From: Azolla caroliniana
Taxonomy: Eukaryota; Plantae; Polypodiophyta
NCBI GenBank assembly: GCA_043228905.1
Contig: JBHGNT010000016.1
Location: forward strand, 18,724,001-18,788,000
Length of the DNA: 64,000 bases
Direction of reading: 5' to 3'
Shown piece after piece: positions 1-56,012 of the stretch (positions within the stretch are counted from its first letter, which is position 1; the number at the start of each line of letters is the position of its first letter). The notes beneath the pieces are model-generated. The model was not told the DNA's origin, made no database searches, and saw only the letters and a list, made by a program, of their open reading frames with translations. A program made the translations under genes and the position numbers.

Positions 1-289
1 AAGAGTCTAAAGAAGGGGAGGATTACTTTTAATCCTCGGGATTGAGACAACCCATGAGGCCAAGTGTGAACATGGCTGGGGGCCTTGAGAATTACTATAA
101 ATAAGAGGCCTAGCTACCCTCATTTCATCATGCATTGACTACGTCGAGACTCTGTCCGTGAGTGGAACGACTCTTGTAGCAAGCGCGCTATCATCCAGGT
201 ACGACTCGACGCCAAGGCGGTGGTATGGGACGCCGATCGAGGCTCGAGTCCGTCTCGATCCCTTCGCTCGGGGGTGGTCGGGTGGATCG
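1..289 (+). repeat. Partial LTR of gypsy chromovirus family G1, fused to inverted pol
   Basis: Matches 5506-5794 (LTR 5423-5887) base for base as far as read; switches at TCG (287-289) into minus-strand RT sequence. Confidence 0.93.
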
Positions 290-3065: not shown

Positions 3066-3111
3066 TTCGGAGTTATTACCTCGATTCGTTCGAAATGATA
3101 TGCGTTGGATT

Positions 3112-4401
3112 TGGTATCAGATTTTTGTACTAATGTTTCTTTGTTTTTCATTTGTCTTTTGATTGATGCTGATCGATCGTTGTGCGGTTGGCCTTGATCC
3201 AGACAACGATCAACAAAGAACTTCGGTAACTCTTTCCATAATTTTCTTTCTATTCTCTCTTCTCCCATCAAATCATGTGTTTAGTTTATATGTAATTTTT
3301 TTTCATTAAGTCAATGATGTTGTAGTGGTCTTTAATTGATTATCTAAAACGTTTACATATGTGCACGAGGTCAATACCTCGTTTGACATATTAATAATAT
3401 GTGATGAGTGTCGTATGCGTACGAGGTTAATACCTCAATTACGTATTACGTTCACGAACATATGTTACGTTTGCGTATGAGTTTAATACCTTGATTTGTT
3501 GTAAACGATATGCGATTTGGTCTCGTATGCGTAAGAGGTCAATACCTCCATTGCGTATTACGATGATCTCTTATTTGTGGATGTTTTCGTGTGCGAAAAG
3601 GTATATACCTCGATTACGTAATCTCGATCACATCATTTGTGGCTATTTTCTATAACGATATGTTGAATATAGGCATATGTGGTCACATATATACGTATTT
3701 GATCGTATATATGTGATAAGTAAAATATGTGTATATTCGTTATTACGTGATTATATCGAAAGTTGTCATGATCGGGGAAAAGGATGTTGGTGGCCGTCCT
3801 CACTTTTTGTGAGAGATGGCGTTGTCACCATCCTTTTTCAACATTTTTTTATTGTTGATAACCCCGTTGACGACCTCGATTTCGTTACGTAAAGAAACGC
3901 CAATAGCCAAAATGATGTTGAGTACGTAGGCTTGACCCACTTCAAGTGAGGTCGCTCCAATGACGCGCGTATCCAACATCCCTCCCTCGTTACATGGATA
4001 CGATGCCACCATGAGCTCGTTCTTACGAGAGGCATTCGTAATGACGTGACCATGTGATGGCCCACGTGAGCTACTACGAAACAAGGCTCATTTGGCTTCA
4101 CCATTAGGTTGCACTTTGGCGTATGCCATCGTAATTACGAGACTTGAGGTTAGGTAACGTACCAACATAGTTTTGGTAAATGAGGGCGAAATAAGGACCT
4201 TGACATATATGTTCTTTTAAAAAAACATATATGATCAATTGCCTCGCATATCTCTTACGCATCAAACATTAAACATTCGAGAAGACCAACTTACTTGGTT
4301 GGCTCAAGTGTTTAATGTATTTGTTCTCGAGGTCTCGAGTTCAAATATGACCAAGACCATACAACATCCTTGATACATATGACTATACCACATGTTTAGA
4401 C
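3112..4401 (+). mobile_element. G1 PBS plus 5' leader in inverted orientation
   Basis: Starts TGGTATCAGA at 3112; diverged reverse complement of about 9786-11054. Confidence 0.85.
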
Positions 4402-4501
4402 NNNNNNNNNNNNNNNNNNNNNNNNNNNNNNNNNNNNNNNNNNNNNNNNNNNNNNNNNNNNNNNNNNNNNNNNNNNNNNNNNNNNNNNNNNNNNNNNNNN
4501 N
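4402..4501. other. Assembly gap (100 N)
   Basis: Run of N. Confidence 1.
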
Positions 4502-4503
4502 AA

Positions 4504-5422
4504 TTTCGTTTTTACGGGTTACCGATGGATATCGTGAGTGACCGAGATCCAAAGTTTACTAGTGACTTCTGGACGCAAGTCTTTAAGAAGTTAGAAACTA
4601 CGTTGAGCATGAGCTCCACGGATCATCCTCAATCCGATGGACAGACAGAACGAGTAAATCAAATTATTGAGGACATGCTTCGAGCATACGTTGGTGCAAA
4701 ACCAACAAAATGGGAACGTTACCTCCCAATTTTGGAGTTTGCTTATAACAGCTCCAAGCATACGTCGACGGGATATAGTCCTTTTATGTTGATGTATGGA
4801 TTATAGCCACGAGCCCCGATTCATGTTAATATACATCATGATGAGTTGCGAAGTACGCAAAACTTTCTTCGGGATATGCAAGATATGTTGCATATTGCAC
4901 GGGATAATATAAAAACAGCTCAGGATAGAGCGCGTTTTTATGCCGATCATCATAGGCAACCTCGTGTATTCAGCCCTGGACAGAAGGTATTTTTACGTGT
5001 ACCTCACAATTCTAAGACATTGTCTACGGGTAAGTGCGCTAAGTTAGCCCCACGGTTTTGTGGACCTTTTACAGTCCTCAAACGCATTGGGTCATCAGCC
5101 TATCGTCTCGCTCTTCCCGATGGTGTCGGAATTCATCCAGTCTTTCATGTAAGTCGTCTAAAATAACTTCTAGGTTCTGGCGACAATACAGTTACAACTG
5201 AAACTCTGGTTACTTCTGAAGATTTATCTTCTAAACCACATGTACCAGAAAGAATTCTCGATGTTAAAACAAAAAAATTACGTACTAAGGAAATCCGAGA
5301 ATTTAAAATAAAATGGATGGATAAATCAATCAAAGATGCCACATGGGAACGCGAAACGACACTAACAACTAACTTCCCTAACTTTCCATTGCAAGAGTGC
5401 AATGTTTTAAAGAGGGGGAGTA
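4504..5422 (+). pseudogene. G1 integrase C-terminal half, chromodomain and PPT (inverted relative to the rest of copy 2)
   Basis: FRFYGLPMDIVSDRD...HPQSDGQTER, GPF motif, chromodomain PERILD..KIKW..DATWE; stops at 4804 and 5164; PPT AGAGGGGGAG 5411-5420. Confidence 0.92.
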
Positions 5423-5887
5423 TGTTACGGGCATGACCATATAATATCCCGTGGTGAGAATTGTCGTAGTATTCTATACACGTGGATAAGTGTGAGGGTT
5501 AAACAAAGAGTCTAAAGAAGGGGAGGATTACTTTTAATCCTCGGGATTGAGACAACCCATGAGGCCAAGTGTGAACATGGCTGGGGGCCTTGAGAATTAC
5601 TATAAATAAGAGGCCTAGCTACCCTCATTTCATCATGCATTGACTACGTCGAGACTCTGTCCGTGAGTGGAACGACTCTTGTAGCAAGCGCGCTATCATC
5701 CAGGTACGACTCGACGCCAAGGCGGTGGTATGGGACGCCGATCGAGGCTCGAGTCCGTCTCGATCCCTTCGCTCGGGGGTGGTCGGGTGGATCGGCACCC
5801 TTCTTTCTCTCTTTTCTCTCTATTCTTTCTAGATCTATCATTGATATATCCTTATTTTATGCTTACTTTAGTACCTAATCTCTAATA
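5423..5887 (+). repeat. G1 3' LTR (465 bp, TGTTA...TAATA)
   Basis: Follows the PPT; reverse complement of 11057-11521. Confidence 0.95.
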
Positions 5888-8292
5888 ATTAACTCATCAA
5901 CGAATTGGTAAGCCAATTCAGGAGTTGTTACCGTGGTTTTAGTAGCAATAAATCTGGCCATTTTAGTCAGTCTGTCAACCACAACCCATATGGCATCATG
6001 ACCTTTTTGGGTGCGAGGAAGGCTAACAATAAAATCCATGGATATACTTTCCCACTTATTATTGGGAATGTCCAAGGGATGTAAAAGTCCTGCGGCTTTA
6101 AGTCGCTCGGCTTTGTTAACCTGACATTGGTGACATTTAGTCACATAGCTATGTATGTCAGGACGCATCTTAGGCCAATAAAATTGAGTGGAGATGAGAA
6201 CGAGTGTACGATGTATTCCAGGGTGCCCTGCTGAGGGTGCATCATGGCATTCAAAAAGAATTCTCTTTTTGACCTCAGGTAAATCTGGAACACAAACCTT
6301 CCCATTACGGTAGAGCAGACCGTTAGCAATGTGGAAGTATTCCTTCGAGGGTGTGGTGGTGTCTGTTCCAGACTCGACTCTTGCCCAGTATTTTGCAAAA
6401 TAATTGTCATCAGGATACTTTCCTCGAAGGTGATCATAAAGATCTGATGTTATTTCAGTGAAGCTAAGCATGTTAACTTCACGGATGCGACTTAGTGCAT
6501 CAGCGACAGTATTCATGGAACCTTTACGATATCGTATGGAAAAATCAAAGTTCTGGATGAGATCAGCCCATCGTGCCTTACGACCTTTCAGGTCTTGTTG
6601 GTCACAAAAATATTTCAAGGACTCGTGGTCCGTAGTTACCACAAAGCGATTTCCATAAAGATAATGGCGCCATGTTTTGAGCGCATGTATAACCGCAAAT
6701 AATTCCTTTTCTTGAACGGTATACCGACATTGAGCAGAATCAAGTTTCTTACTCTCGAATGCTATTGGTTTACCATCTTGATACAAGACAGCACCTATAG
6801 CATAATCGCTTGCGTCGGTTTCAACCTCAAAAGGTTTTGAAGGATCGGGTAAAAGAAGTGAAGGAGCCTTGCATACCAAGTCCTTGAGTTCCTTAAAGGC
6901 GAGGTCTAGTGTAGCATTCCACACAATAGGTTTTGTAGACTTACGCGTTTGACCTTTTAGAAGATCAGTAAACGGCGTCGTCAATTGTGAGTAATTACGA
7001 AGAGATTTTCGCAAAAATCCGACAAAACCAAGGAATGATCGAACTTCTCGAATATTCCGAAGAGTGGGCCAAAGCTTGATTTTCTCGATGCGAGAAGGAT
7101 CAATTTCAACTCCTCGTTCGGTTATGAGATGTCCAAGATAAGTAATTGATTTCTTGAAGAACTCACATTTTGAGATCTTCGCGTAAAATTGTTTGTCACG
7201 CAATATTTGTAAAACAAAGCGGACATGTCTAGCATGTTCTTGTAATGTACGGCTATAAACTAAAATATCATCTAAGAAGATAACGACAAATTTTCCAAGT
7301 TGTTCTCGGAAAATGTCATTCATTTCTTGTTGAAATGTAGCCGGAGCATTGGTCAAACCAAAAGGCATAACCAAAAACTCATAATGGCCGTAGCGCGTAC
7401 GAAATGCTGTTTTAGGAACATCGTCCTCACTTATTCGTATTTGATGGTAGCCAGTACGGAGATCAAGTTTCGTAAAATACCGTGCTCCCTGGAGACGGTC
7501 AATTAGATCGTCAGCCCGGGGCAATGGGTACGAATTCTTGATCGTCACTTTATTCAAGCGTCGGTAATTAATACACATACGCCATGTGCCCTCTTTCTTT
7601 TTAACCAAGAGAACTGGTGCACCCCATGGAGATTTACTATAACGTATATAACCCATTCGTAAATAGTCCTTAAGTTGCTTAGCTACCTCATCCTCTTCAG
7701 ATCGACTTAGGCGATACGGAGGTATACTAATGGGTGCAATGCCAGGTACAATATCTATACGATGGTCTATATTACGTTTAGGAGGTAAACCATCAGGTAG
7801 TTCACTCGGAAAAACATCACGAAAATCGTTTACGATTTCATCAAGTTGTTTTTGTTCAAAATATGTTAATTGACCCGAGACATTATCGATATTGTAAACG
7901 TGAATGTCCGGATCAAGTACACAATAAAATAACGTAGAACAAGACAACTCGGATATTGATGGACACGAGGAAACAATCGAGAGGGATTGTTTTGTTACAC
8001 ATTGAATAAAATGCGTACAATCGTTGAGTACAAAAGAAATGGAATGGCGAACCCAATCAATAAATAAAGAAGAGCTTTTATTATAAAACCAGGGATAACC
8101 CAGTATTACATCGGTGGTACTAAGATTCATTACATGGAAGTCTACTTCCTCTATATAGGTATCAATAGAAATTCCTAAAGAATGAATCGCCCCGTTGATG
8201 TGTTGTACTCTTCCATCAGCCAAGTGCACCGTGTAGGTGTGATCACTTACGGTGGGTTGGATTCCCCATATCTGTACCAAACAATCATTCAC
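5875..8292 (-). CDS. pol: G1 copy 2 Pol (protease C-part, RT, RNase H, integrase N-half; truncated by inversion)
   Basis: 805-aa ORF with [16 protein letters not shown] zinc finger, SMDFI; reads into the inverted LTR. Confidence 0.95.
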
Positions 8293-9482
8293 AAAATTGT
8301 GTGAGCTTCCCGAATCAAATAAAAATTGTACGGGAGATCAATTGATATACCCGTTTGCACGTAGTGTAAATCATTGGGACCCAATACATAATGAGGGAAA
8401 GAACATTCACAATTACTCAAATGATGTGTATAGACCTGAAGGACATTAGGAATCTGACCTTTATGGTCTGTAGCTTTAGGTTTGGCGTCGTGCTCTTTTC
8501 GTTGGAGCTTACGACATTGCTCTTTTGTATGACCCTTCTTTTTGCAGAATACGCAAAAAGGATGTTGTCGCTTATAATCGCGATCCATGAATTCGTTGGG
8601 TGTCTTGCGTTTCCCAGCGAATTGCGACTGCTTAGTCCCGGGCGCTTCGTTGGGTTTGTTATGGTCCTTCTTCGAAGTGCGTTGATAGCGAAGAACTATC
8701 TCAACGGCCTCTTCGAAGGATTTTGGATCCTTATCGTGCACTATCCAGTGATAGTCCGAATTGGGGATGCCATTGACAAAACAAGCTATTAACCAATTGT
8801 CCCCTTCTAGACCCGATTTTTGGATTTGGGTTCTAGCATGGTGGACATAGTCTTCTAGCGAGGAAAACTTCCTGCTAGAGAGGTTCATTAAAGCTTGTGC
8901 TGCCTCGGTTCGAGAGGGAGGTTGTAGAAATTGACCCTTGAAAACTGTGACAAAGTCTGTCCAGGTCTCGGGCAATCTCCCCAAAGTTCGGAGCCCACGC
9001 CACCAAGCGGCGGCCTTACCCCCTAGTTCTCGGCCGACATATGCAATCTTCGTACTATCTGGCGTGGGATAGAGCTCAAAATGAGACTCCCATCGGCCCA
9101 GCCACGTGCAGATTGCTTCTTCGGTTCTTTCCTTTTTATCTCCCGTAAATGGCTTTACGACAAATGATGGTTCACCCTGACGCTCATCAGGTCTATTAAT
9201 CTCATTTTGGAGACTAATGACTCGTGCCTCGAGAGCACTTTGAGATTGCCGAAATTCGGTCAACTGCTGCGCGGTTGAACTAAGGAAATGTTGTACTTGT
9301 AAAATATACGCCTCAATGGACATTGTCCCAGGAGGATTTCCTTGAGGTCTTTCCGCTTGAGCGGAGGGCATCGGGTCGTTATTCTGAGCCATTGAATGAT
9401 TATTTCTGGCAAAGAAATAAGATAAGGTCAGACAAATAGTCATAACATCTTGTCGTGGTGTAAACATATCATGGGCAAACAT
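8289..9482 (-). CDS. gag: G1 copy 2 Gag (probable start near 9392)
   Basis: Retrotransposon gag-like ORF with zinc knuckle [14 protein letters not shown] directly upstream of protease (FDSGSSHNF). Confidence 0.9.
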
Positions 9483-11042
9483 TAATCGATATCATGATCT
9501 CACGTCAATACCCCTCTAGACGTATGAGATGAGGTTCAAGATCAGGTTACTATGGTAACACAGAGGTGTTTTAAAAACCATGGGGGTGACAAATGAATGC
9601 CTTTCCCTGATCTCTATATCGATTTTTTTCATGGCGGCTCCCCGAGGCTCAACCATGTATGTTCGCGTCATGAATAGTTTATACACGAAAAAAATGTTAA
9701 CAATAACTATGTTTCTGTGCCCACATATGTGGTTTCGGCTCTTTAAGTCCTATTACGAGGACCCCGAAGTGCACTTAGACCTAAAGTCTAAACATGTATT
9801 ATAGTCATATGTATCAACGATGTTGTATGGTGTTGGTCATATTTGAACTCGAGACCTCGAGGACAAATACATTAAACACTTGAGCCAACCAAGTAGATTG
9901 CGCGTCTTGAATGTTTAATGTTTGAGGCGTATTCGAGATATGCGAGGCATTTGCCCCTATATGTTTTTTTTAAAAGAAACATATAGGTCAAGTGGCCTTA
10001 TTTCTCCCTCATTTATTACCCACTATGGTTGTACGCTACCTAACCTCAAGCCTCGTAATTACGATGGCATATGCCAAAGTGTAACCTAATGGTCAAGCCG
10101 AATGAGCCCTTGTGTCTTCGTAGGCTCATGTGGCCCATCACATGGTCACGTCATTACGAATGCCACTCGTAAGAACGAGCTCATGGTGGCATCGTATCCA
10201 TGTAACGAGGGGAGATGTTGGATACGTGTGTCATTAGAGCGACCCTACTTGATGTGGATCAAGCCTGACGTATTCAACATCATTTTGGCTATACGAGGTT
10301 CGTTACGTAACGAAATATCAAAGTGACCAACGGGAATTTCAACAATAAAAATTGTTGATAAAAGGGATGGTGACAACGCCATTCTCACAAAAATGTGAGG
10401 ACGGCCACCAAAATCCTCTCCCCAATTAGGAAAACATTTGATATGAATCACGTAATCTAAAATATACACATATGTCAATATATCACATATATACGATCAG
10501 AGACGTATATAAGTGACCACATATGCGTATACTAAATGAATCATTTTTTTTATATAGCCAACAATGATGTATTCGGGATACGTAATCAAGGCATATACCT
10601 CTACGCACACGAAACATCCGAAAATAAGGTTAAGCGTAATTCGCAATTGAGGTATTGACCTCTTACGCATACCAAACCCAACGCATATCATTTCGAACGA
10701 ATCGAGGTATTGACCTCGTACGCGAACGTAACATATGTTCGTGAACGTAATACGCAATTGAGGTAGTAACCTCGTACGCATACGACACTCATCACATATG
10801 ATTTATATGTCAAACGATAACCAATTAAATACCACTTCAACATCATTGAATATATGAAAAAAAAACTACATATTAAGTATACACATGTATAGAAGGGAGA
10901 AGAAAAATTAGATAAAAAAAATTAAGGAAAATTTACCGAAGTTCTTTCGCTAATCCTTGTCTGCATGAAGGCGACCGCACAACGATCAATCGCCATCCCA
11001 CGCGAAGACAAAAAGAAAACCAAAAGAAACGTTAGTACATAT

Positions 11043-11054
11043 GCTCTGATACCA
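11043..11054 (-). promoter_or_regulatory. Primer-binding site, tRNA-iMet type
   Basis: TGGTATCAGAGC 2 nt inside the LTR end. Confidence 0.95.
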
Positions 11055-11056
11055 AT

Positions 11057-11521
11057 TATTAGAGATTAGGTACTAAAGTAAGCATAAAATAAGGATATAT
11101 CAATGATAGATCTAGAAAGAATAGAGAGAAAAGAGAGAAAGAAGGGTGCCGATCCACCCGACCACCCCCGAGCGAAGGGATCGAGACGGACTCGAGCCTC
11201 GATCGGCGTCCCATACCACCGCCTTGGCGTCGAGTCGTACCTGGATGATAGCGCGCTTGCTACAAGAGTCGTTCCACTCACGGACAGAGTCTCGACGTAG
11301 TCAATGCATGATGAAATGAGGGTAGCTAGGCCTCTTATTTATAGTAATTCTCAAGGCCCCCAGCCATGTTCACACTTGGCCTCATGGGTTGTCTCAATCC
11401 CGAGGATTAAAAGTAATCCTCCCCTTCTTTAGACTCTTTGTTTAACCCTCACACTTATCCACGTGTATAGAATACTACGACAATTCTCACCACGGGATAT
11501 TATATGGTCATGCCCGTAACA
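11057..11521 (-). repeat. G1 5' LTR (465 bp)
   Basis: TG start at 11521 abutting copia gag; followed by AT and the PBS. Confidence 0.95.
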
Positions 11522-12834: not shown

Positions 12835-13704
12835 ATGTGGACCTCATGTCTGAACCTAGGCCTTATGTTACCTTTCCCCCCCTAATACCCTCGCCAGTCA
12901 TGGAGCAAACCCCATTCTTGTCATCTCACTTTCTATGTAACGTCCCTTCCGTGGAACCTTCCTTCGCTCTTCCCTGCCTCGCTATCAAATTTTCCCTGGC
13001 CCAGACCTTTTTGCTCACCTTGTCACGAACATCTCTTCTCGTCGTGCCCAAGGACTATTCATTCCGATTTTTCGATTGTTTTTTATTATCATAAAAGGAA
13101 TGTGTTGGGGAGATTTGTTCCTATTTTCGGTCATCGTATTGTGGGCATTTATCCTAAACATATGATTGTCTTATGTTGAGAATCAAGCTCAACTTGGTCT
13201 ATTGTGTGAACTCACCTTGAGAGTGAATAGACACTCTAACGGTCAAGAGTCACCATTATGTCACCACTTTATATTCTTGCATTTAGTATGAGTCATAGAG
13301 TCATATTCTATGACACATAACTTATGAGCTTTCACATTCCCCATGCTCCATGAGTCTTGTAGTTAATGAAGAGAGAGGGTGACTATATAAAGCACCCTCG
13401 TCCCACCTTGTATAATGTTGAGTCTTTCTCCTTTGTTAATATACTTTACCTTGCGTATTCTCTGTGTCTTACTCCTTGTCTCTCTCTCATACACACACAC
13501 ACAACTCATATCTATTCAGCTGCACAGATTCCATCTCTTGATTCTTTACATGGTATTAGGGCGACTTGGTAGCTCGATCTAGCCCATCCGCGTGCGCTGC
13601 GTCCTACGCCGACGACCGAGAACCGGCTCATTGCCATCGTAGCTTCGCTACATAGATCACATTCAAAGAGAGAAGGAGGAGAAGAAGAAGAATCGACATA
13701 ATGA

Positions 13705-16302
13705 ATACTCAAATGGGGAGCGCTCTCCCTATCGAGAAGTTGGATAGAAACAACTTCGCATCTTGGGAGTACAAGATGCACCAATACCTTGTCGGACAAG
13801 GCTATTGGAGCTACATCAAAGGAGCACACGAAGACTGACCCATTGAAACAGCTCCCGGATACGCGACATGGGAGCAAGCCGCAAGCCGCGTGATGTATTG
13901 CTTGGTGACATGTGTTCACGATCACATGCTTGGCTACATTCGCAAAACCAAGACGCCGAAGGGGGCATGGGAAAATCTACGAAAGATTTTCGCGGCGAAC
14001 ACAACCGCAAGAAGGCTTCAACTCCGCCAAGAGTTGAACAACATTCAACAAAGGGACATGTCCATCGCGACATACACCTTGAAGATCAAGGAGCTTTACG
14101 ACTCGCTCGGCTCGATAAGCATAAATATCGATGATGATGAGATGGTGCAAATATGCCTCAGCGGCCTCGCACCACGGTTCGGCGCGAGGCGAACCGCCGT
14201 TCTAACAAGGGAGAAATCTCCCTCCTTCTTCGAGCTCCAATCAATGCTATTGATCGAAGAAAACCACATGTGTACAAGGAGCAATGAGTCGGAAGCCCAC
14301 ATGCTCTACACGCACTCGAACGGAGGAAGAGGACGCGGACGACCGAGAGGCCGATTCGGCCAAGGACAAGGCGGACGAGGTCCGACCTACGACAACAACT
14401 CCCAATTTTGGCCACAAAACGGACGCCAAGGAGGAACCTTCACAAGAAGGGGGAGCTTCCACTCCTGCCCGAGCCATCAAAACGCAACCGAATGCGGATA
14501 TTGCGGAAAGCTCGGCCACCACGAAGAAGAGTGCCGAAAGAAGATGTGTGAATCGGCTTCCACAAGCCGACAACTCACGAATTACGCACACAATTCTGAC
14601 TACGAAGAGTATAGCAGAATGTATGGGCACAACTCCAACTATGAAGATCGTGGCGGAATGTATGCACAAAACTCCGACCGTGGCGGAATATTCATGATGA
14701 AACATAGAGCAAACTCTATGTCGGCCTCAACCTCAACTAGTGCCCTCAATCCGGAGGACGTATGGTTTGTTGACTCCGGAGCCTCAAACCATATGACATC
14801 TCATAAAGAATGGTTTCTTGAACTTCGAGAGCCGGAGCGACCCGGTTATGTCGAAACTGGAGATGACACTACGCACCCGATTCGGCACATCGACAATGTT
14901 CCATTCGGGGAAAGAGGTAAGCAAACATACATTAAAAATGTCTTGCATGTTCCTACGTCTCGGTCGGCCAAATGGTTGAGCAAGGGATGCAAGTACGATT
15001 TGACCAAGAAGGGTGCTTCATCGAAAAAGAGGGCCGAATCATCGCGCATGGAAGAAGAGAGGGCCGGATGTTCATTCTCGATTCACATGAGATGAAATCC
15101 GCCATGTTCGCAAAAAGCATGAAAGCCGACTTTGACATAGAGCTATGGCACAAGCGAATCGGCTATATCAATCTCAACAAACTCAAAGCAATGAAATCGA
15201 AAGGAGTCGTCATCGGAATGCCGGCATTCAAAGAGAAGGAGATTGAGGTGTATGCGAAGCGTGCCAATTCGGCAAGCAACACCAACACCCATTCCCAAAA
15301 GGGGGGAACGTGAGCAAAGGTCTACTCGAAGTAGTCCATTCCGACCTATGGGGATCGGCGTAGACGACTACATTCAGCGGATGCCAATATTACGTGCTCT
15401 TCATCGACGACTTCTCCAGGCACATGTGGCTCTATCCGATGTGGCAAAATAGCGAAGTGTTCGGACACTTCCAAAGGTTTAAAAACGAAGTCGAAAAGGC
15501 CACTGGTCGTCATGTACGATGCCTTCGATCAAATGGCGGCAAGGAGTACTTCTCGGATGATTTCACGACGTATCTTCGAAAGGAAGGAATTCGGCGAGAA
15601 TTCACTTGCCGACACACTCCGCAACAAAACGGAGTAGCCAAGCGCAAAAATCGGCATATCCTCGAAGTAGCGCGGGCCATGATGAACGAGAAGCATATGC
15701 CCAAGTCATATTGGGCCAAAGCTGCAAATACAGTCGTCTACCTAATGAACCGGTGCACAACATCCGGAGTGCACGAGGTCACTCTGCACGAAAAATACTT
15801 CTGAAAGAAGCCGGACTTATCGCACACCCGGATATTCAGCGCGATATCGTACGTGCACATCCCTGACGAGAAGCGTCAAAAGCTTGACCCAAAGTCGGAG
15901 AAATGTATCCTCATAGCATACTCACTATAGCAAAAGGGGTACAAGTGCTACAACCCCTCAACTCGAAAATCTCGAGTAAGTCGAGATGTCGTTTTTGACG
16001 AGTCTGCATCCTGGTACGCACTAGAGACAACTTCGACTCCGACTTCGCTCAACCCGGAATTCGCCGAACAAGAGATAGAGGATGAAGATCGCCTTACGCG
16101 CATGTTCAAAGAAAGTCCGATCACGACCCGACTGAGCGGACCACAAGAGCCTTTGAGCAATCAAAGCACATCACGGCCTAGCCCGAAGATGGACAAAGGC
16201 AAGGCGAAAATGTCGGAATACGAAGACGATTGCTTCGATGACGATGAGTCAACTCACTCATTAGAGTTCGGCGGCTTCGATGTACCAATCGGAGCTAAGA
16301 AA
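13705..16302 (+). pseudogene. Copia A gag, protease, integrase (frameshifts and stops)
   Basis: CGYCGKLGHHEEEC, WFVDSGASNHM, LWHKRIG, FIDDFSR, TPQQNGVA. Confidence 0.92.
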
Positions 16303-16736
16303 GCCCTTGCCATATCACAAGGCTCGAACCCATGACCTTATGCTACATGGGTCGAGCTCTTGACCATTAGATTATACATTGTAATACGTAGAATATTATT
16401 TTCATTTATATTTTATTATAGAAAATTGATGTATATTCCAGATTTCTCTGAAACATTCTAGAAACTTAAGGAGTATTCCTTAGAACACTATAAAAGGAGG
16501 CACAAGGCATTATTTCGAACCAAATCGGTTCAACGCTAGTCTTAAGCCTCCTAGTTACTGTACATTTTCTTCACATAATATATATCTTTTCTTATCATCA
16601 CTCTCTCTCTCTCTCGATCTCTCTCTCCCTCCCACTCACTCACTCTTTCCTTCTCTCGAGAGTTCTTCACCTCTCTTAGTACTAATTCTTCTTTTAGTAC
16701 TAAGTCCTTCTCTATCTTAGTACTGTTCCTGACAGT

Positions 16737-16749
16737 TTGAACCGATTTG
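16737..16749 (+). promoter_or_regulatory. Non-tRNA (self-priming type) primer-binding site
   Basis: TTGAACCGATTTG is the perfect complement of LTR 16521-16533 (CAAATCGGTTCAA), 32 nt after TATAAAA at 16489; no TGG. Confidence 0.8.
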
Positions 16750-16857
16750 CCTACCTTCTGTCTCTCTCATTTCCTACTAATCTCTTATTCCTCTTTTCTT
16801 TCATCCCATGGCCACTGTTAGCGCTGAAGAATATCAATCTGTTTTCTCGGAATTTCA

Positions 16858-19800
16858 ATGCTTGAAAGAGAAGTTCCATGCTTTGGAACAAGAAAACCAA
16901 CGGTTGCTGGGGGATCTTCAGCAAATCTCCTTAGAAAAACAGCAAACGCAACAACAACATGGGGAACTTGCGTTACGCGTGCAACAACTGAGAAGATGGC
17001 AACCATTTCGCTACGTCAGTTGCGTAAAGAAGGGCACAAGGAGGAAATGTTCCTCTTTGCAATATCAGTAAACCCCTCCAGCACCACTAAAGAAGAATCC
17101 ACCGTTCAACTTCCCGAGAAGTATCGTCATTACGCCGATGTGTTTGATAAAGTACAAGCCAACACACTTCCTCATCATCGACCGTACGATTGCCCCATCG
17201 ATTTACAACCGGGAAAAGAGCCGCCATGGGGACCGATCTACAATTTGTCACCAACCGAGCTGGAAGTCCTTCGGGCCTATATAGAGGAGAATTTGGAAAA
17301 TGGTTTCATTCGGCATTCGAAATCTCCAGCGGGCGCACCCATTTTCTTCGTCAAGAAAAAGGATGGATCGCTTTGTCTCGTTGTAGATTACCGTGGCCTG
17401 AATAAGGTTACAATCAGGAATAGGTATGCTCTTCCCCTTATCTCAAGTCTTTTAGAACGGATCAATGGTGCCATGTTCTTCACGAAGATCGACTTACGGG
17501 GAGCATATAACCTTGTACGGATTCGACCAGGAGACGAATGGAAGACCGCGTTTCGCACCAGATATGGGCACTTCGAGTATACGGTCATGCCGTTCGGCCT
17601 CACTAATGCACCGGCAGTCTTCCAGCACATGGCTAATGATATATTCCGAGATCTTTTGGATGATTGTTTGATCATCTATTTGGATGATCTACTGGTTTAT
17701 TCAAAGACCCAAGAAGAACATGATTCTCATGTACTATTAGTACTAAAACGACTTCGAGAACATGATCTGTATGCAAAGCTGGAAAAATGTAGTTTCGGAT
17801 GCAACCAAGTGGAATTTCTCGGCTACATCATTTCGTCAGAAGGCATCTCCATGGACCCAACTAAGGTCAAAACGGTGGTAGAATGGCAGACTCCGCGTTC
17901 GGTGCGGGATGTGCAATGCTTCCTAGGCTTTGCCAATTTTTACCGGAAGTTCAGACAAGATTACTCAAAGATCGTTCTATCTCTCACACAACTTACCAGG
18001 AAGGGACAACCGTTCATCTGGTCTGAAGAAAGGGATGTGGATTTCGAGAGTCTTAAAAAGGCATTTACCTCGGCTCCAATTCTAGCTCATGTCGATCCGG
18101 AAAAACCATTCATTATCGAAGCTGACGCATCAGATTTTGCATTGGGGAGCATTCTGTCACAACAGGGGAATGATGAGAAGCTACATCCTGTGGCTTTTCA
18201 CTCACGCAAGTTTGACGCCGCCGAAATCAACTACGAAATTCATGATAAGGAGCTATTGGCAATAATGGATTCTTTTATGCAATGGAGGCATTTTCTAGAG
18301 GGATCCTCTCATCCGGTCACAATATTTAGTGACCACAAGAACCTTGCCTACTTTCAGGATGCTCGTGTGTTGAATCGACGTCAAGCTCGGTGGGCCCACT
18401 TCCTCACGCGTTTCGACTTCAAAATTACATATCGTCCGGGGAAGCACCAAGGGAAGGCAGATGCATTATCACGACGTTCGTATCTAGCACCCCGTCCCGG
18501 CGAGCCAACTTTTGATAAACAAAAACAAGTCATCTTGGGACCGGCACGACTACAAACAACACAGATCTTTGATATGCCCATGGATTCCCGCGTTATCGAT
18601 ACCATACGTGAAGACTTGAAGACAGATGCGTTCGCCCAAGCTATACTAGCACAAATTGATCCCTCTCGAGCATCGTGTTCACAGTCACAACCACCAGGTA
18701 CGGACTATCGGCAATTCAAATACCATGATGGATTACTCTTCTTTAAAGAACTTTTGTATGTTCCTAATGGTTCTTGCCGCCTTCAAGTAGTACAAAACTG
18801 TCATGACACATATACAGCTGGGCATTTTGGTAGTACTAAAACACTACATTTAGTACAATGATCATTCTGGTGGTCCTATATGCGACTATTTGTCGAGGAT
18901 TTTGTTCAGACTTGTGATACATGTTGCAGAGCGAAAATGCCAAGGCATCATCCATATGGTTTATTAGAACCATTACCAATTCCAAGCAAGCCGTGGTAGT
19001 TCATTGCTCTAGACTTCATCACAGATCTTCCAGTCTCTAAGGGGTTCAATGCGATTCTAACGGTGGTTGATCGATATATGAAGATGGCTCATTTCTTGCC
19101 ATGTACTAAGGAGATCTCCAGTGAAGACACTGCCGAAATTGTCATGCGTGAAGTATGTCGGCATCATGGACTTCCCGATAGTATCATCAGCGACCGTGGA
19201 CCCCAGTTCGTGTCAAAATTCTGAAAGCACCTTTTTAACATGCTCAAGGTCAGTTGTAACCTCTCCTCCGGCTACCACCCACAAACCGACGGCCAAGCCG
19301 AACGAACCAATCAAACGCTGGAGCAGTATCTGCGGTGCTTTCTTAGCTATCATTAGGATGACTGGGCAGATATTCTCCACTTCGCCGAATTTGCCTATAA
19401 CAACTCTATCCACGCATCCATGAAAGTTACGCCATTTTATGCTTATACGGGATGTCACCCCCGGTGCTATGTACTTGAAACCCCATAGGTGTCCACAAAT
19501 CCTTGCGCAGAGGATCGTTTGGAGAGGTTACGCAAGATACAAGCGGATTTGTCTACTCATCTCCAACAAGCTCAACAAACACACAAGGTTTATGCGGATC
19601 GTCATCGACTCCCATCTAGTTTTAACATTGGAGATCGGGTATGGCTACTCCGACGACACATCAAGACTACTCGCCCATGCGAGAAGTTGGATTATCGGCG
19701 ATTAGGTTCTTTCCGTATTATAGGAAAGATTAATGATGTCGCTTTTCGTCTTGATCTACCTCCACAACTTCGGATACATCCAGTGTTTCATAGTTCTCTC

Positions 19801-20109
19801 CTCGAACCCTATCAAGAGAGCACCATCCCAGGCCGTATTACACAGCCTCCATCCCCAATCGAGCTTGAAGATGGACCTGAGTACGAGGTTGCCGCCATCC
19901 TTGATTCCAAGTTTGTTCGCAACAAGCTCTACTATCTAGTCGATTGGCTAGGATATAGTCCCAACGAGCGTACTTGGGAACCGATAGAGAATGTCACCAA
20001 TGCTCGTGCTCTTCTTGAAGACTTCCATCGTCAATATCCAGACAAACCGGGTCCTCAATCCAAAACGACTCGTTACACTCGTTGTTTTAAAGGGGGGATA
20101 GTGTCATGA
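16858..20109 (+). pseudogene. pol: Element T pol: RT and RNase H (open 16858-18861), integrase with stops, chromodomain
   Basis: [76 protein letters not shown]. Confidence 0.95.
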
Positions 20110-20536
20110 TATGGCAAGACTCGAACCCATGACCTTATACTACATGGGTCGAGCTCTTGACTATTAGATTATACATTGTAATACGTAGAATATTATTTTC
20201 ATTTATGTTTTATTATAGAAAATTGATGTATATTCCAGATTTCTCTGAAACATTCTAGAAACTTAAGGAGTATTCCTTAGAACACTATAAAAGGAGGCAC
20301 AAGGCATTATTTCGAACCAAATCGGTTCAACGCCAGTCTTAAGCCTCCTAGTTACTATACATTTTCTTCACATAATATATATCTTTTCTTATCATCACTC
20401 TCTCTCTCTCTCGATCTCTCTCTCCCTCCCTCTCACTCACTCTTTCCTTCTCTTGAGAGTTCTTCACCTCTCTTAGTACTAAAACTTCTTTTAGTACTAA
20501 GTCCTTCTCTGTCTTAGTACTGTTCTTGACAGCCCT

Positions 20537-22223
20537 CATCTCTGCAAATGAAAAGCTCCGTCGTTCCACCCGTGAAAAGAATCCGGTCAGTCGATTCGGC
20601 CACAACAACTACATGGCATATCACTATGCCTTTATGATGAAGGTGGCGACAGTACGCAAGCCAGAAACATTTTCCGAAGTAGCAAAGGACCCACGATGGA
20701 TCAAAGCAATGAACGAGGAGATGCGTGCACTACGCAAGAACGAGGCATGTGATCTCGTTCCCCACTCACCGCACAAGAAGGCAATTGGATGTAGATGGAT
20801 TTACAAAGTGAAGTACAACGCCGACAGTTCCGTCAACCGCTACAAAGCGCAACTCATAGCGAAAGGCTACGCACAAACGCATGGAGTTGACTATGAAAAG
20901 AACTTTGCCCCGGTGGCAAAGATGACAACGGTATGGACCGTAATTGCACTTGCCGTGGCGAAAGGGTGGCACCTCCATCAACTGGACGTCAAGAATGCCT
21001 TTCTACAAGGCGAATTAGAAGAGGTGTACATGATACAACCACCCGGCTTCAACTTGAGCACCCATCCGAAAGTTGTATGCCGACTCAAGAAGCCACTCTA
21101 CGGCCTCAAGCAAGCACCGTGTTCTTGGCATTCGAAGATAACGCAATATCTTCATCAAATTGGCTTCCGTATGTCAAAATTGGACAACTCCCTCTACATA
21201 CGAAGCGATTCCCCAAGTCCGATCGTCATCATCTTATATGTGGATGACCTAGTCATTGGAGGTGAGCATCTCGTCGAAATCAATAAGGTCAAATCCCTCC
21301 TTTCCGACAAGTTCGAGATGACGGACATGAAGGAGCTCCACTACTTCCTCAACATCGAGATAATTTGGACTCCGGCCGGAATCATGATCTCTCAACGGCA
21401 CTACATCCTCAATTTATTATACAAATTCGGGATGGCTGAGTGCAAATCCGCGGCAACCCCGCTCGATCGCAATTTCAAACTAGTTGCGAACTCCGGCACC
21501 AAAGCGTGTGAGCCGACTCAATATCGGCAACTCATCGGGAGTCTCATCTACCTCACGATCACTTGACCCAATCTCAGTTATCCGGTCGATCTCCTTAGCC
21601 AATTCATGCAAACACCGCGTAATACTCACTTGGATTGCGCTAAGCGAGTTCTACGATACGTGAGCGGCACAATGAATTGCGGCATCCTCTACAAGACCAC
21701 GATGCCAATACGACTCGAGGGGTACACAGACACCGATTGGGCCGGCTACAAAGCTGATAGAAGATCAACCTCCGGATTTGTTTTTTCCCTCGGCAACGGA
21801 GCAATATCTTGGAGCAGCAAAAAGCAACCAACCGTTGCTCTTTCGAGCACAGAGGCAGAATACAGGGGCGCAGTAGTGGCCGCATGTGAAACCGTATGGC
21901 TCAAAAGGATACTCAAGGATCTAGGCGTACCCATCAAGGATCCGACTTCCCTTTACTGCGACAACATGACCAGTATCTATTTGGCTCGGAACCCGGTGTT
22001 CCACACGCAGACAAAGCACATCGAAGTGCACTATCACTTCATCCGAGAGCGCGTTCTAGCTGGCAATGTCGACCTACAACACATTAGCACAAATCTTCAA
22101 ACGGCCGACATCTTCACTAAAGCCTTAGGAGCCGACAAGCTATGGCAAATCATGACCGATCTCGGATTGACGATCCCTGACCTGCCAAGCTTGAGGGGGA
22201 GAACTGAAGACACTACGCAATAA
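20537..22223 (+). pseudogene. Copia A RT and RNase H
   Basis: QLDVKNAFL, LYGLKQ, LYVDDL, SWSSKKQ, TKHIEVHYHF; stop at 21564. Confidence 0.95.
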
Positions 22224-23957
22224 CGCGTGGATTCCGCAACCGCGCAACGAAGCTGCGAAGAGCCGATCTACCGCGCAAAGCCGCGAAGAAAGACGCAAGC
22301 CGAAGCACATACTTCTCAACTACGCACAATGCAAGCTGGAGCACGGATTCCGCAACTCCGCATAAATGCGAGTCGACGCGGACCGCGGAACGCGAGTCGA
22401 AGTGGATTTCGGATACCGTCTGAAACCGACCCGACTTGATCTTGAGGGGGCATGTTGAGAATCAAGCTCAACTTGGTCTAGTGTGTGAACTCACCTTGAG
22501 GGTGAATAGACACTCCAACGGTCAAGAGTCACCATAATGTCACCACTTTATATTCTTGCATTTAGTATGAGTCATAGAATCATATTCTATGACACATAAC
22601 TTATGAGCTTTCACATTCCCCATGCTCCATGAGTCTTGTAGTTAATGAAGAGAGAGGGTGACTATGTAAAGCACCCTCCTCCCACCTTGTATAATGTTGA
22701 GTCTTTCTCCTTTGTTAATATACTTTACCTTGCATATTCTCTGTGTCTTACTCCTTGTCTCTCTCACACACACACTCTCTCTCATACACACACACAATTC
22801 ATATCTATTCCGCTGCACATAATCCATCTCTTGATTCTTTACATCTTATGTAGAATGCCATAGGTTTGTTCTCACCATTCCCCTTCAATCACATGCATTT
22901 ATGGAAATGATGCAAATGCCTCCTTTCTTCTTAAATATGACATCATTCCTCAATCATTTTTGTTGAGCTTGCAAATAATGGAATGTCTCCTTTCATCTTA
23001 AATAAGATACCCTTCCTCTATCATATTATTTGAGCTTGCACTCATGTTGCATCTTATGAACATCTTATACATTCATATTTTGCATATTACTCGCACTCTT
23101 ATGCATTTCAGGACTGGAGGGAGGTCATATGATTAGATCCTCTTTTTTTGCGAATGGTCTCCTACATTAAGTTAATACATGTCCTTGTGATAACTAACGT
23201 AGTGTTTGGAATGCTCAACAACTTTACACACCATAAATAATTGTGCGTTTGTTTAGATTGTTTGACGAAAAGTCTAATTGAAAACGCTTACCCATGTGGA
23301 GGCTTGTGGACATTATTCTTGTTCATCATTTTGAAGACCCCCTTTTTCCCTATGATGTTGTCTCACATTCATATGACTTAGTAAGACTTGGTTCAAGCTA
23401 ACTTACAACCTTTTTTTGTATATTGGTGAAAGTTTGTGGCCACCCACCTCTATGTGATACAAGCCCCCATTAAGAACACTTTGTTAAGTCTAATCAAGAG
23501 ATTGTCATGTGCAAACTCAGTATGCAATCTTTCATTGCAAAATGATGTAATCATAACTAAGGTCCAGTCAAATCATTAGACAACTTGAATTGAAAAAGCG
23601 AAGCTTGATCTATGAGGCCACGTGCTCATGCCAATGCGTGAGAACCAAGGTCTTTGATCAAATATTGCATTCAATAACTACCCTAAAATGCGAGCTCCCA
23701 CTTTATGTTGGTTGATGAAGATGAAGTGGTCGAGCAATTGTTTTTACTGATAGTAGAAAGAAAAAATACAATAGAGAAAGAAGAACAAAATGCATAGATC
23801 ACACATAGACATTTTGGTAGCATAATAAACCTTGCATTACTTTTGATCTATATACTAGGAATGGGCCCAATTTGGTTTAGGTTTCTTTGCCTTGAAACCA
23901 AACCAAACCAAACCAAACCATTTATATAGATAAAAAACCAAATCAAACTGTTTATGA

Positions 23958-24910
23958 ACTTTCAAGCCATTTAAGAAAACGTAAATCAAACCATTTTAAA
24001 CAAAACCGTTTAGGGAAAAGTTGAAACCAAACTGAGCCACTTAATAAAAAGTTTGAACCTAACCACATTTAAGCCAAACTAATTAAAAAATGAAATAAAT
24101 AAAAATACACTAAATTAAATAAGCATTTATGTTAATTAAATTAAATAAATAAATAAACATTAATTAAGCCATTAGATTAAATAAACATTTAAGTTAAGTG
24201 AATTAAATCAATAAAAAACATTAATTAAACCATTAAATTACATAGACATTTAAGGGATAAAAAAGTTAGCCACTTTCAAGCCATTTAAGAAAACGTAAAT
24301 CAAACCATTTTAAACAAAACCGTTTAGGGAAAAGTTGAAACCAAACTGAGCCACTTAATAAAAAGTTTGAACCTAACCACATTTAAGCCAAACTAATTAA
24401 AAAATGAAATAAATAAAAATACACTAAATTAAATAAGCATTTATGTTAATTAAATTAAATAAATAAATAAACATTAATTAAGCCATTAGATTAAATAAAC
24501 ATTTAAGTTAAGTGAATTAAATCAATAAAAAACATTAATTAAACCATTAAATTACATAGACATTTAAGGGATAAAAAAGTTAGCCACTTTCAAGCCATTT
24601 AAGAAAACGTAAATCAAACCATTTTAAACAAAACCGTTTAGGGAAAAGTTGAAACCAAACTGAGCCACTTAATAAAAAGTTTGAACCTAACCACATTTAA
24701 GCCAAACTAATTAAAAAATGAAATAAATAAAAATACACTAAATTAAATAAGCATTTATGTTAATTAAATTAAATAAATAAATAAACATTAATTAAGCCAT
24801 TAGATTAAATAAACATTTAAGTTAAGTGAATTAAATCAATAAAAAACATTAATTAAACCATTAAATTACATAGACATTTAAGGGATAAAAAAGTTAGCCA
24901 CTTTCAAGCC
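23958..24910. repeat. Three tandem copies of a 314-bp AT-rich unit
   Basis: ACTTTCAAGCC recurs at 23958, 24272, 24586 and 24900; units look identical. Confidence 0.95.
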
Positions 24911-24960
24911 TTTAAACCAAACCACTTAAACTTGTAAACTGATAAACCCCAATTTTAGAA

Positions 24961-36572: not shown

Positions 36573-36611
<39 letters not shown>

Positions 36612-37419
36612 TGTGTGTGTGTGTGTGAGTGAGAGATCGAGGGAGAGAAAATGATGATGATAGTGATATATTATGTGAGAAGAATATAAAAGGAAGGGTA
36701 GGAGGTTTAACACTGGCGTTGAACTGAGTTGGTTCGAAATAATGCCTTGTGCCTCCTTTTATAGTGTTCTGAGGAGTAGTCCTAAAGCTTTTAGAATGTT
36801 CCAGAGAAATCTAGAATATACATTAATTTTCTATAGTAAATCTTAAATAAAAATAATATCGATCTACTTCTAGAATGTTCCAGAGAAATATGGAATATAC
36901 ATTAATTTTCTATAGTAAAACTTAAATAAAAATAATATTGTACGAATTACAATAGATAGTGTAATGGTCAAGAGCTTGACCTATGTAACATAAGGTCATG
37001 GGTTCGAGTCTTGCCTTATCATGACATTATCCCCATTTTAAAATGACGAGTGTCACGAGTCGTTTTGGATTGAGGACCCGATTTATTTGGATATTGACAA
37101 TGGAAGTCTTCAAGAACAGCATGAGCATTGGTCACATTCTCTATTGGTTCCCAAGTACGCTCATTGGGACTATATCCTAGCCAATCGACTACATAGTAGA
37201 GCTTGTTGCGAACAATCTTGGAATCGAGGATAGTAGCAACCTCATACTTAGGTCCATCTTCAAGTTCGATCGGGGGTGGAGGTTGTGGAATAAGTCTTGG
37301 GATGGTGCTGTCTTGATAAGGTTCGAGGAGAGAACTATGAAACACCGAATGTATGCAAAGTTGCGGGGGTAGATCGAGACGAAAATCGACATCATTAATC
37401 TTTCCAATAATACGGAAAG
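36081..37419 (-). mobile_element. Second, older copy of chromovirus T: chromodomain, PPT, 3' LTR (36081-37026)
   Basis: ORF 37019-37462 matches 19489-20109; LTR homologous to 20102-20531 with a ~79-bp internal duplication near 36792-36940. Confidence 0.9.
36158..36581 (-). mobile_element. 5'-truncated non-LTR retrotransposon (LINE) 3' end with (TCTA)n tail, inserted in the LTR microsatellite
   Basis: MRLSSHALRCETGRW..RLCTLC..ESEYHTLIQC C-terminal Cys/His motif; (AGAT)n at about 36158-36189. Confidence 0.8.
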
Positions 37420-55800: not shown

Positions 55801-56012
55801 AGAGGGAGGGGATTTGTTACCTGGAGGATGGTGATGCCTGCGGATTGGAGGGATTGGACAATGTCAGGTTTGGAGGCGATGGTGGAGGGTCTGATGAGGG
55901 CGAAGGTGGGATGGCCCAAGGATGCCCCTGCAAGGGCTATGAACTTCCCGATGTAGCCTGTGGCGCCCAGAACCAGGACTCTTTTGCTCTCCTCTTCTCC
56001 ATCTCCTGCCAT
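52814..56012 (-). CDS. Isoflavone reductase-like / phenylcoumaran benzylic ether reductase-like (PIP, NmrA-type SDR); exons 56012-55821, 55268-55134, 54731-54494, 53287-53084, 52977-52814 (310 aa)
   Basis: GATGYIG NADPH motif, VDVVISAVG, KRFIPSEFGND, K..RR.IE..IPYTYV, LYPDVKYTSVDDYL; GT-AG introns all in phase. Confidence 0.95.
53440..54285 (+). mobile_element. Internally deleted LINE remnant in intron 3 of the reductase gene (antisense)
   Basis: RT motif LYADDVV; C-terminal RTRSHMLGIE..TCK*CNEGMVEDECHLL; TTCTAA-type tail before (AT)n. Confidence 0.8.

What the first reader, a model, noticed from the sequence alone, without database searches (positions are those of the whole stretch)
16489..16749. 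tRNA-independent, self-priming LTR retrotransposon in a plant genome
Seen: where a PBS should be (2 nt after the 5' LTR end at 16734) there is no TGG tRNA complement. Instead 16737-16749 TTGAACCGATTTG is the perfect 13-nt complement of 16521-16533 CAAATCGGTTCAA, which begins 32 nt after TATAAAA (16489), about where transcription should start. Known: S. pombe Tf1 and related Tf1/sushi-group chromoviruses prime reverse transcription by annealing the first ~11 nt of their own mRNA to the PBS, followed by RNase H cleavage; seed-plant chromoviruses typically use tRNA-iMet. Inference: this family self-primes. The RT (PPWGPIYNLS..ELEVLRAYIEENL..GFIRHSKSPAGAP) looks fungal Tcn1/Tf1-like, a clade reported from non-seed plants.
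Basis: partly seen in the sequence, partly recalled or inferred. Interest (0 to 1): 0.85.

Follow-up and report, generated by a model that had tools for sequence, protein, structure and literature searches.

The report
Self-priming Tcn1 retrotransposon in a fern
A broken copy of an abundant jumping-gene family, likely in a fern, has no tRNA docking site; the 12 bases after its left repeat pair with a stretch of that repeat, and sister families keep the pairing with different letters, so it likely starts copying itself with a piece of its own RNA, a route shown in yeast Tf1 and already predicted in print for this plant group.

Summary
The part shared by family copies is 12 nt. The element (16308-20531) is a dead, gag/protease-deleted copy of a very abundant Ty3/gypsy chromovirus family nested in a copia element; plastid gene order points to a leptosporangiate fern host. 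Self-priming is well supported: no tRNA 3' end fits; a sister subfamily changes primer and PBS together (28 of 29 versus 26 of 26 copies, not independent); a second family in the genome has a different 11-nt PBS pairing at TATA+32; the published Selaginella SM-Tcn1 record shows the same layout by eye. The transcription start and the RNase H cut were not testable. It is not new: Neumann et al. 2019 predict self-priming for 83% of 1500 plant Tcn1 elements, a 2026 paper lists Tcn1 in ferns, and this scan noted the same thing before in two moss-type genomes. What is added is covariation evidence and a ragged PBS border that may record RNA 5' ends. New member of a known kind; low interest.

The parts
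16303..16307 (+). Left target-site duplication GCCCT (right copy 20532-20536)
16308..16734 (+). 5' LTR, TG...CA; first ~15 nt locally rearranged (10-nt inversion) against the 3' LTR
   Evidence: 14 of 423 aligned positions differ, 3 of them in the rearranged end
16489..16495 (+). TATA box (predicted)
   Evidence: sequence; kept in the 30 closest copies
16522..16533 (+). Predicted self-primer, first 12 nt of the RNA (16521 adds a 13th pair in this copy); predicted cut after 16533
   Evidence: start site and cut inferred
16517..16531 (+). Weak local hairpin across the predicted start site
   Evidence: (p 0.82 only when the whole U3 is included)
16675..16704 (+). Predicted 11-bp U5 hairpin from repeated palindromes
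   Evidence: p 0.99
16722..16736 (+). LTR end and GT spacer; predicted short stem (with 16722-16727, p 0.54, or with 16535-16541, p 0.39)
16737..16748 (+). Primer-binding site, complementary to 16522-16533
16749..16751 (+). Hypervariable border just 3' of the PBS
   Evidence: minor-letter share 0.22 against 0.004 in the leader and 0.006 in the primer, 30 copies
16808..16990 (+). gag remnant; about 1.45 kb of gag and protease deleted at ~16990
17350..17832 (+). Reverse transcriptase (YLDD at 17677)
   Evidence: Pfam RVT_1 E 5e-33
18094..18414 (+). RNase H
   Evidence: Pfam RT_RNaseH E 3e-35
18769..19812 (+). Integrase with SH3 domain, broken by stops at 18859, 18997, 19222, 19354, 19486
19882..20031 (+). 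Chromodomain, group I type, aromatic residues Y, W, Y at 19882, 19945, 19954
   Evidence: Pfam Chromo E 1e-14
20089..20101 (+). Polypurine tract
20102..20531 (+). 3' LTR
13173..22844 (+). Host Ty1/copia element into which the chromovirus inserted
36597..37419 (-). Partial second copy of the family (chromodomain, PPT, truncated 3' LTR)

Best explanation
This is a dead copy of a Tcn1-type chromovirus family whose PBS pairs with its own LTR and that likely primes reverse transcription with the first 12 nucleotides of its own RNA. Shown: the pairing, its position (PBS 2 nt after the LTR, partner 32-33 nt after the TATA box), its retention with changed letters in related families, and the lack of a tRNA site. 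Inferred, by analogy with Tf1: transcription starts at about 16522; the RNA 5' end folds back on 16737-16748; the element's RT/RNase H cuts after about 16533; the freed 3' OH is extended across U5 and R to give minus-strand strong-stop DNA; the PPT at 20089-20101 primes the plus strand. Inferred further: the plus strand copies the attached primer, so each new PBS is rewritten from the RNA 5' end, which would explain the ragged bases just 3' of the PBS.
For: Pairing beyond chance; 12-bp helix p about 0.95, fold z -7.1. Exact LTR-end+PBS junction at 637 places, reversed control 0. A one-letter PBS variant at 1041 places: 28 of 29 such copies carry the matching letter in the primer, 26 of 26 copies of the window type carry the other. 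Second family (RT-RH about 63% identical, 384 junctions): other 11-nt PBS, 5 of 11 letters different, partner at TATA+32; perfect in 24 of 28 counted copies, one mismatch in 4. Distant metagenome relatives: 15 of 22 loci with an LTR pair give 8-13 nt, 14 of them at offset +2. SM-Tcn1 record read by eye: 15-nt complement (499-513 against 392-406), same flanking motifs, RT 154 of 199 residues identical. No tRNA 3' end fits (at most 2 nt, 39-40 tRNA sequences). RT tree joins it to fungal and vertebrate rows, apart from seed-plant rows (94/87, midpoint root). Tf1 mechanism and non-templated additions by Tf1 RT: passages.
Against: No start-site or strong-stop data: only contigs were served. The within-family covariation is not independent: on a gag tree primer and PBS change 4 and 5 times, 4 independent pairs, sign test p 0.625, and part of the switching is recombination of the LTR+PBS block. 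The three-duplex 'pretzel' of Tf1 is only partly seen: the leader duplex of the window copy is no better than shuffles (35 of 200 as good) nor is the pre-PBS duplex (133 of 200). One distant family pairs only 8 nt and does not fold that way (p 0.0). 7 of 22 distant loci gave under 8 nt, and 57 of 79 had no usable LTR pair. The predicted PBS for the changed primer of the window's second copy was not found (0 places).
Confidence: 0.88

Rival explanations
1. A tRNA fragment cut in the T arm primes reverse transcription; the LTR complement is secondary.
For: The spacer plus the first 7 PBS bases pair with 9 nt of the T arm of tRNA-Asn(GTT). Only 12 anticodon types were sampled (30 of 62 tRNA loci fetched).
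Against: 9 nt is shorter than the 12-13 nt self match; the second family's PBS matches no sampled tRNA over more than 6 nt yet pairs 11 nt with its own LTR; it does not explain why the primer letter follows the PBS letter.
Confidence: 0.04
2. The duplex is real and selected but structural (packaging, dimerisation or translation control); priming uses another route.
For: Covariation shows pairing, not priming; the start site is unmeasured; flanking pretzel duplexes are weak.
Against: The PBS arm sits at the fixed +2 offset where a primer must end, in both families here, in SM-Tcn1 and in 14 distant loci; no other primer site exists; the experimentally proven Tf1 belongs to the same group.
Confidence: 0.06
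3. Chance complement, or a one-off local duplication inherited by descent.
For: Copies within a family share ancestry; the primer region is itself part of a small inverted repeat.
Against: 0 of 20000 shuffles reach 13 nt; different letters pair in different families.
Confidence: 0.02

Closest known systems
Plant Tcn1-clade chromoviruses (REXdb; Neumann et al. 2019, PMC6317226; SM-Tcn1 of Selaginella, Novikova et al. 2010, PMC2864245)
   Same: Group I chromodomain with aromatic cage, overlapping gag and pol frames, about 5.7 kb, 5-bp TSD, no tRNA PBS, LTR-complementary PBS; RT 154 of 199 residues identical to SM-Tcn1 by eye; same LTR-end and post-primer motifs. Neumann predicts self-priming for 83% of 1500 elements.
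   Different: Host is likely a fern, where the 2010 PCR survey of 26 ferns and horsetails found none and Neumann lists only moss and club-moss; but PMC13477047 states that ferns contain Tcn1 (its ferns are Alsophila and Adiantum). Novikova reported no PBS for SM-Tcn1, although the record holds the complement. This copy is deleted and broken.
Tf1/Tf2 of Schizosaccharomyces pombe and the Tf1/sushi group
   Same: PBS complementary to the predicted RNA 5' end; chromodomain integrase; RT groups with fungal and vertebrate rows.
   Different: Primer 12 nt (11 in Tf1, recalled); the flanking pretzel duplexes are weak or not found here; separate gag and pol frames; self-priming is proven for Tf1, only predicted here.
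Seed-plant chromoviruses (Tekay, Reina, Galadriel, CRM)
   Same: Ty3/gypsy domain order with a C-terminal chromodomain.
   Different: They mostly use tRNA-Met and lack the aromatic cage; Asteraceae rows are 42-49% identical and fall on another branch.

Membership tests
Plant Tcn1 clade | RT close to a named Tcn1 element | tested here: met
   154 of 199 RT residues identical to SM-Tcn1, counted by eye; gag also plainly alike
Plant Tcn1 clade | Placement inside the Tcn1 clade in a tree with REXdb references | not testable with these tools
   No named Tcn1, Tf1, Tekay, Reina or Galadriel reference was among the tree rows; REXdb files too large to read
Plant Tcn1 clade | Group I chromodomain with aromatic cage | tested here: met
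   Pfam Chromo; Y, W, Y at 19882, 19945, 19954; definition
Plant Tcn1 clade | Overlapping gag and pol frames, 5.5-9.4 kb, 5-bp TSD | tested here: met
   Undeleted family copy 5772 bp with frames 529-1722 and 1698-5306; 5-bp TSD; table. The second family is 5.3 kb, a little under the range
Plant Tcn1 clade | At least 10 nt starting 0-5 nt after the 5' LTR complementary to the LTR (Neumann's criterion) | tested here: met
   13 nt at +2; 12 or more in 25 of 30 copies
Plant Tcn1 clade | Non-seed plant host | tested here: met
   Inferred: plastid contig G000:C73 has psbZ-trnG-trnC-petN, then trnE-trnY, inverted trnD, rpoB, the derived fern arrangement described in PMC3098776 (passages; figure not seen; rpoB and psa/psb names other than psbZ and petN recognised from memory)
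Tf1/sushi self-priming group | No tRNA 3'-end PBS | tested here: met
   No TGG within 0-5 nt; best 3'-end match 2 nt (partial tRNA set)
Tf1/sushi self-priming group | Primer lies at the very 5' end of the RNA | not testable with these tools
   Only contigs served; TATA+32/33 spacing kept in two families and SM-Tcn1
Tf1/sushi self-priming group | Three-duplex 'pretzel' around the PBS | tested here: inconclusive
   Central duplex p 0.9-0.97; pre-PBS duplex above shuffles in L172, L193, L201 (5-7 of 200 as good) but not in the window (133 of 200); leader duplex 35 of 200 in the window; definition from passage, figure not seen
Tf1/sushi self-priming group | RNase H-dependent cut that frees the primer | not testable with these tools
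   RNase H domain present; cut is inferred
Tf1/sushi self-priming group | RT groups with fungal and vertebrate chromoviruses | tested here: met
   Branch 94/87, unstarred, midpoint root, 53 rows; 88 in the quick tree of 119 rows
Seed-plant chromoviruses (Tekay, Reina, Galadriel, CRM) | tRNA-Met PBS and group II chromodomain | tested here: not met
   tree

The most novel reading that the evidence does not exclude
The thousands of copies in this genome are a fossil record of self-priming: the PBS is rewritten from the RNA's 5' end in every cycle, so the ragged 1-3 bases behind it (G, T or C; 10 different 8-mers in 26 near-identical copies) record start-site choice, the cap and untemplated additions, and a U3 hairpin arm that copies the PBS hides the 3' copy of the primer. 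That would give a sequence-only test of self-priming for any LTR family.
Probability: 0.3. Interest if true: 0.5.

Novelty: new member of a known kind. Interest (0 to 1): 0.24.

Why it matters
Self-priming has been shown by experiment only in fission yeast; for plant Tcn1 elements it was predicted from complementarity in single copies. The matched changes between subfamilies and families found here strengthen that prediction, and a fern with over 2000 exact LTR-PBS junctions of three types is convenient material for a 5'-end experiment. It does not change what is known: mechanism, clade and presence in ferns are all in print.

Tried and rejected
Predicted PBS for the altered primer of the second copy in the window: 0 places; that change is private. 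RNA evidence: five runs, all contigs, shares 0.22 or less; no start site obtainable. One contig of run X2 (depth 3.5, RNA only a guess) folds back exactly at the duplex (16520 to 16749, opposite strands), but it includes U3, so it is not the primer-strong-stop species, and nothing like it appeared for the second family: not counted. Phylogenetically independent covariation test: 4 pairs, not significant (19 of 92 loci skipped for lack of a PBS with enough flank, 11 dropped for short gag match, 62 used). Cluster members and ESM Atlas gave no host names of use. PDB search gave only Ty3 and other general RTs. 'First Tcn1 in a fern' considered and rejected; searches for Tcn1 with fern names found no other report, but the 300-genome dataset of PMC8282616 includes two water ferns and its element tables were not seen. 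The U3 hairpin as a general feature rejected: absent in six distant loci and weak in the window copy. Levin 1995, Lin and Levin 1997 (RNA) and Atwood-Moore 2006 are not held.

Full report
Observation. The two 13-mers are exact reverse complements at the stated places, and TATAAAA is at 16489. The longest perfect complement starting 0-5 nt after the LTR reached 13 nt in 0 of 20000 Markov-shuffled LTRs and in 0 of 549 internal positions used as mock PBS; 12 nt was reached once in each. Two neighbouring elements that show a TGG-type PBS give 5 nt.

Anatomy. The element runs from 16308 to 20531 between GCCCT duplications, inside a copia element. It carries RT, RNase H, integrase, SH3 and a chromodomain and a PPT. 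About 1.45 kb of gag and protease are missing at ~16990 and the integrase frame has five stops, so this copy is dead. Its LTRs differ at 14 of 423 positions (K2P 0.034); with the fern rate quoted in PMC13477047 that would be roughly 3 million years, a loose estimate.

The conserved duplex is 12 nt. Among the 30 closest copies (chosen by likeness to a query holding both motifs; one is the window) 8 pair over 13 nt, 17 over 12 nt, and 5 have one substitution. Folding from 16522 gives the 12-bp helix with probability about 0.95 and z -7.1 against 200 shuffles. The three columns behind the PBS are far more variable (minor-letter share 0.22) than the leader (0.004) or the primer (0.006), with 10 different 8-mers in 26 copies.

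Covariation within the family. A PBS variant with one changed letter occurs at 1041 places. Of the first 30, 29 had a findable primer and 28 of these carry the matching change; 26 of 26 window-type copies with an exact junction carry the other letter (4 of 30 lacked the junction). These copies are not independent. On a gag tree of 62 rows (19 of 92 loci skipped, 11 dropped) primer and PBS change 4 and 5 times; 59 rows are matched and 3 unmatched; 4 independent pairs give p 0.625. Some switches are recombinants that join an LTR+PBS of one lineage to the leader and gag of another right behind the PBS. The site is also a CpG. So this may be one or two mutational events.

Covariation between families is the stronger test. 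Of 40 loci picked by chromodomain score, 32 gave an LTR pair (2 no RT, 6 no pair). Three belong to this family; 29 to a second family, RT-RH about 63% identical, whose PBS starts at +2, differs at 5 of 11 letters and pairs with its own LTR at TATA+32: perfectly in 24 of 28 counted, with one mismatch in 4; 384 exact junctions genome-wide, control 0. Of 79 metagenome loci (50-83% identical), 22 had a usable LTR pair; 15 of these pair over 8-13 nt, 14 at offset +2, in six different PBS sequences; nine of the 15 are one family with only 8 nt that does not fold this way. The SM-Tcn1 record of Selaginella (PMC2864245 supplement), read by eye, has a 15-nt complement (499-513 against 392-406) about 30 nt after its TATA-like box, with the same motifs behind the primer and at the LTR end, although that paper reported no PBS.

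tRNA priming. No TGG follows the LTR, so an intact tRNA 3' end cannot anneal; the best 3'-end match is 2 nt among 39-40 tRNA sequences of 12 anticodon types, from 30 of 62 loci. A 9-nt match to the T arm of tRNA-Asn exists for this family but not for the second (6 nt at best).

Lineage and host. Named relatives: a mucoromycete 64%, amphibians and fish 52-64%, Ustilago 56%, Asteraceae 42-49%; the closest (60-89%) are unnamed metagenome proteins. In a careful tree of 53 rows the element and the second family lie with fungal and vertebrate rows, apart from Asteraceae, Closterium and the window's other gypsy element (94/87, midpoint root). No named Tcn1 was in the tree; by eye the RT has 154 of 199 residues identical to SM-Tcn1 (not the same stretch as the figures above). 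The chromodomain keeps the three aromatic residues. A plastid contig of the assembly has psbZ-trnG-trnC-petN followed by trnE-trnY, an inverted trnD and rpoB, which fits the derived order of core leptosporangiate ferns described in PMC3098776 (passages); the host is therefore likely such a fern.

Mechanism. Shown: pairing, position, covariation, no tRNA site. Inferred from Tf1 (passages; the primary papers are not held): start near 16522, fold-back, RNase H-dependent cut after about 16533, extension across U5-R. Tf1 cDNA keeps a DNA copy of the PBS and its RT adds untemplated bases, which would explain the ragged border; slippage in the T run is an alternative. The flanking duplexes of the Tf1 pretzel are weak in this copy and only partly above shuffles in relatives. 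Start site and cut could not be tested: all runs were contigs.

What is known. Neumann et al. 2019 (passages and Additional file 5; Additional files 1 and 3 too large to read) predict self-priming for 83% of 1500 plant Tcn1 elements by the same criterion. They and Novikova et al. 2010 (passages, sections 6 and 7, one supplement) knew Tcn1 only from mosses and lycophytes, but PMC13477047 (passages and one part of its table file; fern rows of Table S25 not seen) says that ferns contain Tcn1. Also seen as passages: PMC3350952, PMC8282616, PMC13469084, the S. osmophilus preprint (figure and supplements not seen). Searches showed no paper on self-priming in a fern element or on the ragged PBS border, but most subscription papers are not held. 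Earlier notes of this scan describe the same layout in two moss-type genomes.

Verdict. Observation confirmed, interpretation supported (0.88), novelty low: a new member of a known kind. Interest 0.24.

Noticed in passing
window 16517-16531; L172, L192, L193, L201, L095: A hairpin spans the predicted start site, its U3 arm copying part of the PBS: 9 nt in the second family (0 of 85 control windows), 7 nt in L192/L193, weak in the window copy, absent in six distant loci. It could hide the 3' LTR copy of the primer.
   Followed up: partly
L212, L213, L234, L235, L240, L218: Recombinant subfamily: one LTR type joined to two different leader/gag types with the junction at or just behind the PBS.
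   Followed up: partly
window 16308-16322: The 5' LTR begins with a 10-nt inversion and is 3 nt shorter than the 3' LTR, yet keeps TG and a perfect TSD.
   Followed up: no
PMC2864245 supplement S3 (SM-Tcn1, 392-406 and 499-513): The published Selaginella element holds a 15-nt self-complementary PBS that its paper said was not found; read by eye.
   Followed up: partly
run X2, record 13: One contig of depth 3.5 changes strand exactly at the primer/PBS duplex; probably a fold-back artefact or a rearranged copy.
   Followed up: partly
window 1-11521: Another gypsy element on the minus strand with a TGG-type PBS at 11054; its 468-bp LTR has a 100% identical copy in inverted orientation at 5423-5890, near an N gap at 4402-4501, and a 94% tandem duplicate at 287-3062. 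May be an assembly artefact.
   Followed up: no
window 23958-24922: Three near-identical AT-rich 314-bp tandem units.
   Followed up: no
window 55788-56000 minus: First exon of an NmrA-like (isoflavone-reductase-type, label recalled) host gene.
   Followed up: no
L031, L038, L039 (G000:C5), L048 (G000:C2): Tandem arrays of nuclear tRNA-Lys(TTT) and tRNA-Ile(TAT) genes about 370 bp apart or closer.
   Followed up: no
L045 (G000:C73): Plastid psbZ and petN appear to need RNA editing for start, stop and several residues, as expected in ferns (recalled).
   Followed up: no
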